From assembly GCA_900314795.1 (NCBI GenBank), contig OMWP01000001.1, forward strand, positions 16,265 through 80,264: 64,000 nt of DNA, written 5' to 3'. Positions 16,765-60,117 of this stretch are shown piece by piece; position 1 is the stretch's first letter, and every line of letters begins with the position of its first letter. The DNA comes from an uncultured Eubacteriales bacterium. Its GTDB lineage: Bacteria > Bacillota > Clostridia > Oscillospirales > Acutalibacteraceae. The notes below the pieces were generated by a model that was not told where the DNA came from, made no database searches, and saw only the letters and a program-made list of their open reading frames with translations. The position numbers and the translations under genes were made by a program.

Positions 16765-16945
16765 TAGGGTGACAGGAATAATCCGAACCTGCTGAAAATG
16801 GCAATATTTCGGCAATTTTCGGCTTATCAATCTTGGCAGGCGCCAGCCTGCCTGCACTTCCCTGACGGGTTCGCGAGGATTTTAACAATGGGCAGGCGGA
16901 AATATGCCCGTCAAAACCACGGTTCGGATTATTCCTGTCACCCTA
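16765..16945. mobile_element. MITE-like element with 25-bp perfect terminal inverted repeats, copy 1
   Basis: TAGGGTGACAGGAATAATCCGAACC ... GGTTCGGATTATTCCTGTCACCCTA; near-identical inverted copy at 23805-23987; non-coding. Confidence 0.85.
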
Positions 16946-23804: not shown

Positions 23805-23987
23805 TAGGGTGACAGGAATAATCCGAACCGTGGTTTTGACGGGCATATTTCCGCCTGCCCATTGTTAAAATCCTCGCGAACCCGTCAGGGTTCGCTGTGG
23901 GCAGGCTGGCGCCTGCCAAGATTGATAAGCCGAAAATTGCCGAAATATTGCCATTTTCAGCAGGTTCGGATTATTCCTGTCACCCTA
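23805..23987. mobile_element. MITE-like element with 25-bp TIR, copy 2 (inverted relative to copy 1)
   Basis: Same TIRs; interior matches the reverse complement of 16765-16945 except a 7-nt vs 9-nt patch. Confidence 0.85.
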
Positions 23988-36611: not shown

Positions 36612-36688
36612 CCGGGTGTGGCGCAGTTTGGTAGCGCGCTTGAATGGGGTTCAAGAGGCCGCTGGTTCGACTCCAGTCACTCGGACCA
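36612..36688 (+). tRNA. tRNA-Pro(GGG)
   Basis: Acceptor CCGGGTG/CACTCGG + ACCA; D-arm GCGCAGTTTGGTAGCGC; anticodon arm CTTGA-ATGGGGT-TCAAG; T-loop GGTTCGACTCC. Confidence 0.96.
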
Positions 36689-41082: not shown

Positions 41083-41199
41083 ACACACAAAAGCGTGTAA
41101 GAGGATACCCCTCCTACACGCTCTTTTTTCTGTTCGGCACTGTCGAACAGCGGTGCGACAAGGAATGACATAAATAGAAGAGCAACTTTGGACAGTGTT

Positions 41200-41376
41200 T
41201 ATTTGTACCCCATTAAGGTGGTCGATAACAAAAACGTAGAGTATAACGGCAAAACGATGTCGCTGACAGCGTTGGCGAAGCTGCTGCCCGGGAAGAAGTA
41301 CGCCGTAGCAGACCTCCGGTTCTTTAAATACAAAAGCGAGGAAGCTCAATGACCTATGGCAGAGGCTGGGTGTGTA
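41200..41376 (+). pseudogene. Remnant of the C-terminus of a GIY-YIG/T5orf172-type nuclease gene (RAMA-like)
   Basis: Reads IKVVDNKNVEYNGKTMSLTALAKLLPGKKYAVADLRFFKYK, then a frameshift to NDLWQRLGV*; no start. Family assignment from recall. Confidence 0.45.
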
Positions 41377-41704
41377 AAGTGGTCGATTCGATATGGAAGT
41401 GGTGCCGCTGAAGAAACAGAGTAAAAAAGAACAGCGCAAACACCATGCTCTGTCGCGATTGGAACGGCTTGAAGTTGACCACGAGAGTTGTAGAAAGTAA
41501 GAAAGTCTATAACCGCAAGAAGGTGAGAAAGCCGAAAATTAATACCGTGAACCAGGCTGTGCCCTCGTAAGAGTATACAGCTTTTTGGGCTTTTTGGATT
41601 TTTGGATTCCAAATTCATCAAAGTGACTTTTATCGGACTCGTCTTGTGCGATAATGAGTACAAGGAGTAGAATTCAACCCCAAAAACCTACAAGGAGGAT
41701 CATT

Positions 41705-41860
41705 ATGTTTGACGATATTTTCGGAGGAATGTTTGATTTCAACGGCGACTGTCATACCGACTTCGCTGAGGAGGCTGTCGGCTTTGCTATCATGGAGGAT
41801 ATGATAAGCGAGAATGACAGTGAGGATGACTTCGATATCGACTCGGATGACGACTGGTAA
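41705..41860 (+). CDS. Small acidic hypothetical protein (EF-hand-like DFNGD)
   Basis: AAGGAGG RBS; MFDDIFGGMFDFNGDCHTDFAEEAVGF... Confidence 0.6.
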   Translation: MFDDIFGGMFDFNGDCHTDFAEEAVGFAIMEDMISENDSEDDFDIDSDDDW

Positions 41861-41882
41861 CGGATAACAAAAACAGAATAAG

Positions 41883-42012
41883 CCTATATAGAGTGCGCGA
41901 GGGACAAGCCCGTTGACCGCACAGCAACCTGCCGACTCTCACGACGGTAAGGTGCTAATGCTTGACCGATAGGTGAACCCGGCGCTCTTTAGGATATATC
42001 ACAAAAGGAGTG
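41883..42012 (+). ncRNA. SAM-I/IV-like riboswitch
   Basis: P1 CCTAT/ATAGG, P2 GTGCG/CGCAC, core GAGGGA..GCCC..TGA, GCAACC, AAGGTGCTAA, GCTTGACCGAT; lacks the SAM-I P4. Confidence 0.75.
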
Positions 42013-42017
42013 TCATT

Positions 42018-42284
42018 ATGAAAACAATCAAAGAGTCAGCAAACATGGGTGAGCGTGTGTATGTTCACCTCAAGGATGAAGAAACAGCGATGAGGTTTCT
42101 GCGGCAGGCAGAATCGGAGGGATTCACCTTCGGCGATGGTGTCAGCCCCACAGATCGCCATTGGTCGGATCTCTATGCGGTCCATCCCGACAGTACGCTG
42201 AACTATGTCAGCACTAACGGACGCATACACTACGGCTCCGGCGCGGATGGGATCGTAAGGATAGAATACGCAGAATTATTGTAA
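42018..42284 (+). CDS. Hypothetical protein downstream of the SAM riboswitch
   Basis: AAGGAG RBS; 88 aa; no recognised motif. Confidence 0.7.
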   Translation: MKTIKESANMGERVYVHLKDEETAMRFLRQAESEGFTFGDGVSPTDRHWSDLYAVHPDSTLNYVSTNGRIHYGSGADGIVRIEYAELL

Positions 42285-42305: not shown

Positions 42306-42809
42306 ATGAGCAATCATGATGATTTCGTTGATGACTATATCGAATACAGAATCTTTGAAGAAAGCATGAAAAGATCAGGCGGAAAGCCGCCCAGACGTAA
42401 TAGTGGATGCTGTGGCTGCAGCACATGGGCGATCCTCATAGTGGCGATTCTGATTGTACTGGGCGTGTTATGCGCCTGCGGCAAGAGCAATAAAAGTTCA
42501 TACTCTGGCTCATACCGCAGTAATGTCAGCTCGTCATACAGCAATCGTTCTTATTCATCGAGTAGCAAAAGCACATCCAGCGACTACTCTTCCGGAAGAT
42601 CATCGATCCGCTCAACCGGCACCAACTCCGCGTACAGCAACACTTCCAAATCGAAAAGCAGTTCCAAAGCCAAGCGCACATCATCCGATCCGTATGATAC
42701 TAAGTCCTATGCTCATCCGAACGATTTATACTACGATTATCCTGATGACTTTTGGGATTATGAGGATGCGGAGGAATACTGGGAAGAACATCAGGATGTT
42801 TTAGTATAG
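42306..42809 (+). CDS. Hypothetical single-TM protein with a Ser-rich linker and acidic/Tyr-rich tail
   Basis: AGGAGG RBS; hydrophobic WAILIVAILIVLGVLCAC; low-complexity Ser region. Confidence 0.65.
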   Translation: MSNHDDFVDDYIEYRIFEESMKRSGGKPPRRNSGCCGCSTWAILIVAILIVLGVLCACGKSNKSSYSGSYRSNVSSSYSNRSYSSSSKSTSSDYSSGRSSIRSTGTNSAYSNTSKSKSSSKAKRTSSDPYDTKSYAHPNDLYYDYPDDFWDYEDAEEYWEEHQDVLV

Positions 42810-42921
42810 GAAAAAATGTAAAAAGAAATAGTTTCTCTTGATAATTTGCACAAAAAGGATTATATTATTATTGGTAAAGTATAGTAATTTGTCAATTGTT
42901 GTGTAAAAAAGGAGAAAAGCA

Positions 42922-59565: not shown

Positions 59566-60117
59566 ATACTCACCTGCTTCAAATACAAACTACAATATTA
59601 TTATATCACAAAGTATTATTATTTCAAGTATAATTTTTATACTCTCAGTTTAGGCTGATATTCAATCCGAGCAAGAGAAAAGGATCTGTTTTCATGATGA
59701 AAACAGGTCCTTTTTTGTTACCCGGAAACGACAAAATTGAAGATTGAGGCAAGGTAGGGGAAGTATCGCCCTGCCCTTGAGCGGTGCCTCAGAGCGAAGA
59801 AAAGCGCCCGAAATCTACCCGAGAACGCACAGTTCAGGGAAGTCTCGGGCGTTTCTGCGTTTCAGGGTTAGGCATTCGATGCGATATCCAAACACGGTTT
59901 TGACGGGCTGATTTCCGCCTGCCCTTTGTTAAAATCCGCGCAAACCCTGGCGCCTGTCAAGACTGACAACGCAGTTATGCGGAATTCTCCACAATAGATA
60001 TTAAAGTGTTTTATTGCTACTTAGTATCAGTCATGAAAAGCCATCGGGCAGTAACAGAGCATAAGAACAGGCTGTACTCTCACACGAGGGTACAGCCTGG
60101 TGTATTTATCTAACTTT

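What the first reader, a model, noticed from the sequence alone, without database searches (positions are those of the whole stretch)
41883..42284. SAM-I/IV-like riboswitch controlling an unknown gene just upstream of a methylation-linked defence operon
The SAM-clan core is clear. Loop L3 (ACTCT, 41935-41939) can pair with the SD (GGAGT, 42007-42011) of the 88-aa ORF, predicting a pseudoknot-mediated translational OFF switch. SAM riboswitches normally precede Met/SAM metabolism genes (established); here the target is a protein of unknown function in a mobile island, co-oriented with and ~1 kb upstream of a Dcm-containing cluster. The top of P1 deviates (ATATAGAG instead of ATCAAGAG), so the RNA may have altered ligand specificity or be decaying. 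It could couple island gene expression to SAM availability.
Basis: partly seen in the sequence, partly recalled or inferred. Interest (0 to 1): 0.65.

Follow-up and report, generated by a model that had tools for sequence, protein, structure and literature searches.

The report
SAM riboswitch guarding a mobile-element gene
A genuine SAM-sensing RNA switch sits in front of a small protein of unknown function that travels on phages, transposons and conjugative islands, so these mobile elements appear to read the host's SAM level, for a purpose still unknown.

Summary
Window 41881-41975 (+) is a real SAM-I riboswitch aptamer: Rfam RF00162, 58.3 bits against a cut-off of 44.4. It is not SAM-I/IV (25 bits against 41.1) and not SAM-IV (no hit). 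It has no P4 helix but keeps the kink-turn, the L2:J3/4 pseudoknot and the ligand-contact nucleotides.

- **Selection:** the aptamer is 93% identical among relatives, against 64% at third codon positions of the gene. It is not decaying.
- **Gene link:** the pairing with the 88-aa gene holds down to 40% protein identity, in rumen, human-gut, sludge and viral contigs. In the host genus, SAM-I elements precede only metK and this gene family, plus one other unknown small gene.
- **Mechanism:** The switch instead uses an anti-SD segment (41981-41990). This segment pairs either with the SD (42005-42014) or with the aptamer's 5' side (41883-41899). The two folds differ by 0.6 kcal/mol.
- **History:** distant relatives carry a terminator plus this same element. 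The window's clade has lost the terminator.
- **Dcm cluster:** the link to the Dcm operon is not general.

The 88-aa protein has no recognisable family or fold.

The parts
41705..41860 (+). Upstream cistron: a 51-aa very acidic protein (MFDDIFGGMFDFNGDCHTD...DSDDDW). Its stop codon lies 20 nt before the aptamer, so the riboswitch is intercistronic.
   Evidence: Translation. Called as a 51-aa gene in identical contigs. The same 51-aa gene precedes the riboswitch in L073 and L081.
41881..41975 (+). SAM-I aptamer without P4. P1 is 41882-41887 with 41969-41974. P2 carries a kink-turn. L2 (CAAG, 41905-41908) pairs with J3/4 (CUUG, 41961-41964) as pseudoknot PK-1. P3 has loop L3 at 41935-41944.
   Evidence: RF00162 at 58.3 bits. 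Covariation over 26 sequences: 92.5% of cells paired, 15 pairs with changes on both sides, 0 of 500 shuffles as high, PK-1 100% paired. Mean pairwise identity 93%.
41883..41899 (+). Anti-sequestor 5' partner: the P1 5' strand, J1/2 and the P2 5' strand (CCUAUAUAGAGUGCGCG). It pairs with 41980-41993 when SAM is absent.
   Evidence: Duplex energy -17.5 kcal/mol. 96.4% paired in the clade, against 22-50% with slid partners. The forced fold is only 0.6 kcal/mol above the MFE.
41981..41990 (+). Anti-SD segment GGCGCUCUUU. It is the shared strand of the two mutually exclusive helices.
42005..42014 (+). Sequestor 3' strand AAGGAGUGUC. It contains the Shine-Dalgarno GGAG (42007-42010).
   Evidence: A 10-bp hairpin in the MFE fold. 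98.5% paired in 13 clade members. Family-wide covariation score 0.259 against 0.135 in shuffles, 0 of 500 as high.
42018..42284 (+). Regulated gene: an 88-aa cytosolic protein (P0001) of an unnamed family with motifs GRVYVyL, AExEGFTFxDGxKPT and TLNYVGxxGRI.
   Evidence: 439 clusters at 50% identity. No Pfam, NCBIfam, PHROG or PADLOC hit. AlphaFold model pLDDT 88.5, no PDB match.
42306..42809 (+). Second cistron: a 167-aa single-pass membrane protein. It has a conserved 42-aa N-terminus and a variable Ser-rich tail. It follows p88 in nearly all close relatives.
   Evidence: Translation. Synteny by tblastn.

Best explanation
The element is a SAM-I class riboswitch that lacks P4. It sits between two cistrons of a small mobile-element operon: a 51-aa acidic protein, then the riboswitch, then p88, then a 167-aa membrane protein. 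It turns translation of p88 OFF when SAM is plentiful.

The proposed switch uses one pyrimidine-rich strand, GGCGCUCUUU (41981-41990), six nucleotides after P1.
- **Low SAM:** the strand pairs with the aptamer's own 5' side (P1 5' strand, J1/2 and P2 5' strand, 41883-41899). This breaks the aptamer and leaves the Shine-Dalgarno free.
- **High SAM:** SAM locks P1 and P2. The strand is released and forms a 10-bp hairpin with AAGGAGUGUC (42005-42014), which buries the SD.

Distant relatives have the same device behind a classical S-box terminator, giving dual transcriptional and translational control. The window's rumen clade has deleted the terminator and kept only the translational half.

**Shown here:** aptamer identity, its covariation and selection, the conserved RNA-gene link, and the existence, conservation and near-equal energy of the two folds.

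**Inferred:** SAM binding, the actual switching, and what p88 does. My leading guess for p88 is weak (about 0.15-0.2). It may be a mobile-element establishment, anti-restriction or restriction-alleviation factor that is needed when SAM is too scarce for DNA methylation.
For: **Aptamer**
- RF00162 at 58.3 bits against 44.4.
- Structure with PK-1 supported by covariation: 92.5% paired, 15 double-change pairs, 0 of 500 shuffles as high; slid controls 24-41%.
- Kink-turn and ligand-contact positions are invariant in 26 sequences.
- Natural P4-less SAM-I aptamers are reported to work, with lower affinity (PMC12714719).

**Selection**
- Aptamer pairwise identity 93%, platform 86%, codon position 3 64%, upstream flank 36%.

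**RNA-gene link**
- RF00162 above cut-off directly upstream of p88 homologues in 9 of 13 genome loci, 27 metagenome loci and 6 of 6 viral contigs.
- In 61 related genomes, the 30 top-scoring hits (those fetched as loci) precede metK. Of 14 weaker hits, 10 precede p88 homologues.

**Switch**
- Window OFF fold -41.0 and ON fold -40.4 kcal/mol. SD unpaired probability is 0.0-0.1 against 0.65-0.99.
- In 12 clade members the ON fold lies 0-3.7 kcal/mol from the MFE.
- Sequestor 98.5% and anti-sequestor 96.4% paired in the clade.
- Family-wide sequestor covariation, 0 of 500 shuffles as high.
- The aptamer 5' side to anti-SD duplex is -15 to -24.5 kcal/mol, z -2.4 to -4.5, in 19 of 25 leaders. In 25 metK leaders the mean is -8.9, against -15.6 here.
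- No terminator after the aptamer.
Against: - No experiment: SAM binding and switching are untested.
- The anti-sequestor shows no significant covariation in a rigid ungapped register. Within the clade all variation is one-sided.
- CUCU is complementary both to the invariant AGAG of J1/2 and to the GGAG of the SD. Part of the dual complementarity therefore comes for free.
- Sister loci have lost the switch (clean deletion in L006, L007, L012, L023), split it with a 162-nt insert (L081, L003, L017, L018), or truncated it with unrelated upstream sequence resembling an IS transposase (L041, L049). SAM control is therefore dispensable in some lineages.
- Sequences are related, so shuffle tests and the Mann-Whitney p-value overstate significance.
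Confidence: 0.7

Rival explanations
1. One reading: loop L3 (ACUCU, 41935-41939) pairs with the SD (GGAGU, 42007-42011). This would form a SAM-IV-like second pseudoknot that blocks translation when the aptamer is folded.
For: The 5 pairs exist in the window sequence. The CUCAC part of L3 is conserved in the clade, which the main model does not explain. RF01725 aligns weakly across 41879-42017 at 25 bits.
Against: Only 70.8% of cells are paired in 13 clade members, against 40-63% for slid controls. The central C:G pair is present in 2 of 13. There are no compensatory changes while the SD is invariant. Distant relatives have 4-6-nt L3 loops with no room for such a helix. RF01725 is below its cut-off and RF00634 is absent.
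Confidence: 0.07
2. The aptamer is a non-responsive relic. After the terminator was lost, the aptamer no longer controls anything. The anti-SD:SD hairpin merely damps translation constitutively.
For: The terminator is absent here but present in distant relatives. Related loci have deleted, split or truncated aptamers. The MFE fold is the OFF fold.
Against: The aptamer is more conserved (93%) than second codon positions (91%), and far more than third positions (64%) or the upstream flank (36%). The ON fold is iso-energetic with the OFF fold. The complementarity of the aptamer 5' side to the anti-SD is retained.
Confidence: 0.1
3. The riboswitch acts mainly on the transcript rather than on initiation. 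Blocking p88 translation would expose the mRNA to Rho or RNases. SAM would then set the level of the whole downstream message, including p167 and possibly read-through into the defence operon.
For: No terminator was found between p167 and the 79-aa gene. p88 and p167 are tightly linked in nearly all close relatives. Dual-acting translational riboswitches are established elsewhere (my own knowledge, e.g. E. coli lysC).
Against: A promoter-like site (10 of 12 matches) lies at 42838-42866, before the defence operon. The downstream cargo differs between relatives.
Confidence: 0.1
4. The aptamer has shifted ligand specificity (SAH or another adenosyl compound) because P4 is missing and the top of P1 is non-canonical.
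For: The A.G closing pair and the U at the first J1/2 position differ from consensus. P4 is absent.
Against: All positions that contact SAM in the solved SAM-I structure are invariant: the A-U and U-A pairs of P1, AGA of J1/2, and the bulged A, U and G-C in P3 (mapping from my knowledge of PDB 2GIS). P4-less natural aptamers respond to SAM (PMC12714719). Some family members have the consensus AUCAAGAG (L042, L048, L062).
Confidence: 0.03

Closest known systems
Canonical S-box / SAM-I riboswitch (Rfam RF00162), for example the metK leader of this same genome (contig 27)
   Same: Same aptamer family, with P1-P2(kink-turn)-P3 and PK-1, and OFF logic. The distant p88 leaders also use the classical terminator/antiterminator, in which the P1 3' strand pairs with the terminator's 5' arm.
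   Different: No P4 helix. No terminator in the window's clade. An extra anti-SD element. The target is not a Met/SAM metabolism gene but an unknown small protein on mobile elements. Bit scores are bimodal: 74-88 for metK leaders and 45-64 for this type.
Translationally acting SAM-I riboswitch of Xanthomonas campestris (SAM-I Xcc; PMC7270179)
   Same: A SAM-I aptamer that controls mainly translation rather than termination.
   Different: That one controls a methionine-synthesis operon in a proteobacterium. Here the host is a Clostridia mobile element with a different platform. I did not compare the platform sequences.
SAM-IV (RF00634) and SAM-I/IV (RF01725)
   Same: Same clan and ligand-binding core. 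Like SAM-IV, there is no P4 inside the junction and PK-1 is present.
   Different: No P5 or PK-2. The kink-turn is of SAM-I type. SAM-I/IV lacks PK-1 and a split P2 (PMC6890682), and both are present here. Scores are below cut-off or absent.
Natural P4-less SAM-I aptamers of Actinomycetota (noted in PMC12714719)
   Same: RF00162 members with very short or no P4, reported to bind SAM with reduced affinity.
   Different: Different phylum. The present ones are in Clostridia and their phages, ICEs and transposons, and are tied to one gene family.

Membership tests
SAM-I riboswitch (RF00162) | Covariance-model score at or above the curated gathering score | tested here: met
   58.3 bits against 44.4. 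Relatives score 45-64 bits.
SAM-I riboswitch (RF00162) | P1, P2 and P3 helices plus the L2:J3/4 pseudoknot (PK-1), supported by covariation | tested here: met
   92.5% paired, 15 double-change pairs, PK-1 100% paired with 3 of 4 pairs covarying.
SAM-I riboswitch (RF00162) | Kink-turn in P2 (GA on the 5' strand, UGA on the 3' strand) | tested here: met
   A20, G21 and G35, A36 are invariant and T34 nearly so, in 26 sequences. This is a sequence-level test only.
SAM-I riboswitch (RF00162) | Four-way junction with a P4 helix | tested here: not met
   The model's 18-nt P4 insert shrinks to 1 nt. After the PK-1 strand GCUUG only ACCG precedes P1. Natural P4-less members are known (PMC12714719), so this does not exclude membership.
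SAM-I riboswitch (RF00162) | Binds SAM and discriminates against SAH | not testable with these tools
   Ligand-contact positions are conserved, but there is no binding assay.
SAM-I riboswitch (RF00162) | Controls methionine, cysteine or SAM metabolism or transport genes | tested here: not met
   The target is an 88-aa protein with no family hit. The genome's other SAM-I precedes metK.
SAM-I/IV (RF01725) | Score at or above gathering; undivided P2 without PK-1; L3 to 3'-tail pseudoknot | tested here: not met
   25 bits against 41.1. PK-1 and a split P2 are present. L3:SD pairing is not conserved. Feature list from PMC6890682.
SAM-IV (RF00634) | Score at or above gathering; P5 hairpin and PK-2 | tested here: not met
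   No match at E<=10 in the genome.
SD-sequestering (translational) riboswitch | Anti-SD:SD helix | tested here: met
   A 10-bp helix, 98.5% paired in the clade. Family-wide covariation, 0 of 500 shuffles as high.
SD-sequestering (translational) riboswitch | Alternative helix that shares a strand with the aptamer and frees the SD | tested here: inconclusive
   Strong, specific complementarity and iso-energetic folds. Covariation in a fixed register is not significant.
SD-sequestering (translational) riboswitch | Ligand-dependent change in ribosome access | not testable with these tools
   Needs toeprinting or reporter assays.

The most novel reading that the evidence does not exclude
Phages, ICEs and transposons of gut and rumen Clostridia carry a portable SAM-sensing cassette (P4-less SAM-I, anti-SD, with or without a terminator). 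They would use it to read the host's SAM pool and to switch on small effector proteins (p88 and the unrelated p140/p143) only when SAM is scarce.

One reading is that these proteins protect the element or host from methylation-dependent immunity when DNA methylation fails. That would be restriction alleviation or anti-restriction. The alternative is that they respond to SAM depletion during infection.

Three independent contexts place the cassette gene directly upstream of SAM-dependent methylation defences:
- Mza+Dcm (window, L011, L073);
- a Type III R-M system (L081);
- BREX (L128).

About a dozen other contexts do not show this.
Probability: 0.15. Interest if true: 0.85.

Novelty: new variant of a known kind. 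Interest (0 to 1): 0.55.

Why it matters
Riboswitch-gene associations have repeatedly revealed gene functions. Here a well-understood sensor for SAM is tied, across 40-90% protein identity and across phages, a Tn7-like transposon and ICE-like islands, to a protein family with no annotation and no known fold.

In the host genus the SAM-I regulon is just metK plus this mobile gene family, with one other unknown small gene. That gives a direct, testable handle on two questions: what does a mobile element need to do when SAM is low, and does this bear on methylation-based self/non-self discrimination?

The leader also shows how a dual terminator-plus-SD platform can be reduced to a purely translational switch by one deletion.

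I found no report of this association in the searchable literature. Absence from that library is not proof of novelty.

Tried and rejected
- **L3:SD pseudoknot:** counted on 13 clade leaders and not conserved.
- **SAM-I/IV and SAM-IV membership:** below cut-off or absent.
- **Decay hypothesis:** rejected by the conservation gradient.
- **Function of p88:**
  - Pfam, NCBIfam, PHROGs and PADLOC gave nothing.
  - A PDB sequence profile search gave nothing.
  - Foldseek against PDB gave no match with E<0.7.
  - BFVD gave only uncharacterised phage proteins, TM 0.55-0.65.
  - Fusion partners in longer homologues have no Pfam domain beyond weak MORN-like repeats.
- **Plasmid database:** blastn gave no match.
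- **General link to methylation-based defence:** seen in 3 (4 counting the nearby Mrr-type endonuclease gene in L056) of about 16 independent contexts, so not general.
- **p140/p143 as a p88 relative:** hhalign probability 0.7%, so unrelated.
- **Phylum-wide sample:** 400 genomes, none with p88 other than the own genome.
- **Anti-sequestor covariation in a rigid register:** not significant.
- **Literature:** searches for SAM riboswitches on mobile elements or defence islands found nothing relevant.

Full report

Yes. cmscan of the whole window gives one riboswitch hit: RF00162 (SAM-I) at 41881-41975 (+), 58.3 bits against a gathering score of 44.4. The hit is unchanged in a permissive local search.

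The ORF behind it runs 42018-42284 and encodes 88 aa. The SD GGAG is at 42007-42010. No intrinsic terminator follows the aptamer.

The genome (2.5 Mb, 67 contigs) has only one other SAM-I. It lies on contig 27 in front of metK and has a classical terminator.

**2. Which class of RNA is it?**

It is SAM-I. RF01725 (SAM-I/IV) reaches only 25 bits (cut-off 41.1) and RF00634 (SAM-IV) gives nothing.

An alignment of 26 aptamers (window, relatives and the metK copy) supports P1, P2a, P2b, P3 and the L2:J3/4 pseudoknot:
- 92.5% of cells are paired.
- 15 pairs have changes on both sides.
- 0 of 500 shuffles reach these values, and slid controls give 24-41%.

The stretch GCUUG that looks like a vestigial P4 is in fact the 3' strand of PK-1. 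CAAG:CUUG becomes CAGC:GCUG or UAAG:CUUA in relatives. P4 is therefore absent altogether.

The GA and UGA nucleotides of the kink-turn are invariant. So are the positions that contact SAM in solved SAM-I structures; that mapping is from my own knowledge of PDB 2GIS.

According to PMC6890682, SAM-I/IV lacks PK-1 and a split P2, and SAM-IV has P5 and PK-2. None of that fits here. P4-less natural SAM-I aptamers are already on record for Actinomycetota and are said to function with lower affinity (PMC12714719). The missing P4 is therefore unusual for Clostridia but not new in kind.

**3. Is it decaying?**

No. Mean pairwise identities among 13 leaders of the window's clade:

| Region | Identity |
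|---|---|
| Aptamer | 93% |
| Expression platform | 86% |
| ORF codon position 1 | 85% |
| ORF codon position 2 | 91% |
| ORF codon position 3 | 64% |
| 100 nt upstream | 36% |

The 'deviant' AUAUAGAG or AUAAAGAG at the top of P1 is family-wide. It belongs to the strand used by the expression platform (section 5).

**4. Is the RNA-gene pairing conserved?**

Strongly. p88 belongs to an unnamed family. There are more than 249 clusters at 90% identity and 439 clusters at 50% identity with E<=0.001. Most members are 85-110 aa.

RF00162 above its cut-off lies directly upstream of the homologue in:
- 9 of 13 assessable species-representative genomes;
- 27 metagenome loci from rumen, human gut and activated sludge, down to 40% identity;
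- all 6 viral contigs.

In a sample of 61 genomes of the same genus and order, the RF00162 hits are bimodal:
- The 30 top-scoring hits (77-88 bits), the ones fetched as loci, all precede metK.
- Of 14 weaker hits (45-64 bits), 10 precede p88 homologues and 2 are metK leaders cut by contig ends.
- One is cut off by a contig end.
- One (L119) precedes a different unknown 140-aa protein.

Among 400 other genomes sampled across the phylum, none encodes p88. This fits a sporadic accessory gene.

**5. How does it work?**

In 13 clade leaders only 70.8% of cells pair (slid controls 40-63%). The central C:G pair exists in 2 of 13. The SD never changes while L3 does. Distant relatives have tetraloop-sized L3 loops.

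*The sequestor.* A different strand does pair with the SD. GGC(A/G)CUCUUU (41981-41990) forms a 10-bp hairpin with AAGGAGUGUC (42005-42014). This hairpin is in the MFE fold and is 98.5% paired in the clade. It covaries across the whole family: 9 pairs with double changes, score 0.259 against 0.135±0.02, 0 of 500 shuffles as high.

*The anti-sequestor.* The same strand is complementary to the aptamer's 5' side, 41883-41899 (P1 5' strand, J1/2 and P2 5' strand).
- The duplex is -17.5 kcal/mol in the window.
- It is -15 to -24.5 kcal/mol (z -2.4 to -4.5 against shuffled platforms) in 19 of 25 leaders.
- It is 96.4% paired in the clade.
- It includes matched indels, such as CCUAUAAAGAG:CUCUUUAUAGG against CCAUAAAGAG:CUCUUUAUGG.
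- In 25 metK leaders the same measure averages -8.9, against -15.6 here. The sequences are related, so the p-value is only indicative.

*Energetics.* Forcing this anti-sequestor in the window gives -40.4 kcal/mol, against -41.0 for the aptamer-plus-sequestor fold. It raises the unpaired probability of the SD from 0.0-0.1 to 0.65-0.99. In 12 clade members the two folds differ by 0-3.7 kcal/mol. That is the profile of a thermodynamic translational OFF switch, in which ligand binding tips an even balance.

*Caveats.*
- In a rigid ungapped register the anti-sequestor's covariation is not significant.
- CUCU is trivially complementary to both AGAG and GGAG.
- Nothing has been tested at the bench.

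**6. Evolution of the platform**

Distant relatives have an 80-96-nt platform. A standard terminator comes first; its 5' arm can pair with the P1 3' strand as an antiterminator. The same anti-SD and SD follow. That arrangement gives dual control.

The window's clade has a 42-44-nt platform in which P1 is joined almost directly to the anti-SD. The terminator has been lost and only translational control remains.

Within this clade the switch is also expendable:
- Four loci (three distinct sequences) have a clean deletion between two GGATA repeats. It removes the aptamer and anti-SD and leaves the SD open (L006, L007, L012, L023).
- Four loci carry a 162-nt self-closing insert inside P2 (L081, L003, L017, L018).
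- In the human-gut clade, two loci are truncated on the aptamer's 5' side by unrelated upstream sequence that resembles an IS transposase; that assignment rests on my reading of the translated motif and was not checked with a tool (L041, L049).

**7. Context and the Dcm question**

In the window the riboswitch is intercistronic. It starts 20 nt after the stop of a 51-aa acidic ORF and is followed by p88 and a 167-aa single-pass membrane protein.

The p88-p167 pair is kept in nearly all close relatives. The cargo behind it varies:

| Loci | Context |
|---|---|
| window, L011, L073 | Mza-type operon with Dcm/Vsr downstream |
| L081 | Type III R-M system downstream |
| L078, L072 | nitroreductase, NUDIX and other genes |
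| L056 | cargo of a Tn7-like transposon |
| L061, L062, L064, L139 | phage or prophage, next to a DnaN-like clamp |
| L137 | next to integrases |
| L050-L055 | stand-alone, beside a sigma-factor gene (human gut) |

A promoter-like site (10 of 12 matches) precedes the defence operon at 42838-42866. A specific coupling to the Dcm cluster is therefore not supported.

One lead remains. The same riboswitch cassette drives an unrelated 140-143-aa protein (hhalign probability 0.7%). In L128-L132 that gene lies directly upstream of brxA-brxB-brxC. Three SAM-dependent methylation defences (Mza+Dcm, Type III, BREX) thus lie immediately behind cassette genes, but about a dozen other contexts show nothing of the kind.

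**8. The protein**

- The AlphaFold2 model is confident (pLDDT 88.5, pTM 0.78; an alpha/beta fold).
- It matches nothing in the PDB (best E 0.7).
- It matches only uncharacterised phage proteins in BFVD (TM 0.55-0.65).
- No library names it.
- Fusions to unknown domains and tandem duplications exist.

The function is unknown. The regulatory logic says it is wanted when SAM is low. Its carriers say it serves mobile elements.

**9. Verdict**

The finding is a true and functional-looking SAM-I riboswitch.

The RNA class, the P4-less form and SD sequestration are each known. New to my knowledge are the conserved non-metabolic mobile-element regulon, the dual platform and its reduction.

Noticed in passing
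L081:4736-4897 (also L003, L017, L018): A 162-nt self-closing insert (MFE -54.6 kcal/mol, ends paired) splits the SAM-I aptamer inside P2. Its core (24 nt, 96% identical) matches the interior of the window's MITE at 16833-16856 and 23900-23919, and 14 nt at 59947-59960. This parallels the 168-nt insert in the preQ1 riboswitch of this same window noted earlier.
   Followed up: partly
L006:1702-1892, L007, L012, L023: Riboswitch-less alleles of the same gene. The junction GGATAA|ATCAC fits a deletion between two GGATA repeats that removes the aptamer and anti-SD and leaves the SD exposed.
   Followed up: partly
L045:5458-5665 (also L047, L115, L118): A second P4-less SAM-I riboswitch lies 2.6 kb downstream of the first. 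It has a terminator and anti-SD, followed only by an 11-codon ORF (MRMAKRVYKPP) that looks like the stump of a p88 gene, upstream of an HNH gene in Tn7-like cargo.
   Followed up: partly
L119:323-919 and L128:3832-4432: The same riboswitch cassette drives an unrelated unknown protein of 140-143 aa. In L128-L132 this gene sits directly upstream of a BREX operon (brxA, brxB, brxC).
   Followed up: partly
L041:2770-2820, L049:230-285: In these human-gut loci the 5' half of the aptamer is replaced by unrelated upstream sequence whose translation resembles an IS3-type transposase motif. That assignment rests on my own reading and was not tested with a tool.
   Followed up: no
L024:429-575: About 100 nt are inserted between the anti-SD region and the SD, and a T-run follows the CUCUUU. 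This variant platform was not analysed.
   Followed up: no
window 41705-41860: A 51-aa extremely acidic protein with a DFNGDCHTD loop lies directly upstream of the riboswitch. It is conserved with a Cys/His-rich 157-aa partner in L073 and L081. Its charge suggests a possible DNA mimic, but this was not tested.
   Followed up: no
window 41083-41650: A roughly 570-nt stretch with no convincing ORF lies between the terminator of the 701-aa gene (41090-41130) and the small-gene operon. The 157-aa gene found here in relatives is absent, with no tblastn match.
   Followed up: partly
window 41940-41942 (L3 CUCAC, conserved in the clade): The 3' part of loop L3 (CUCAC) is nearly invariant in the window's clade although the loop's 5' part varies. 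No conserved partner was found beyond a 4-bp match to GUGA just after P1.
   Followed up: partly
window 36612-36685: A tRNA gene (59.4 bits) lies a few hundred bases before the ParB/TnpV genes. It is a likely integration site marking the island's left edge.
   Followed up: no
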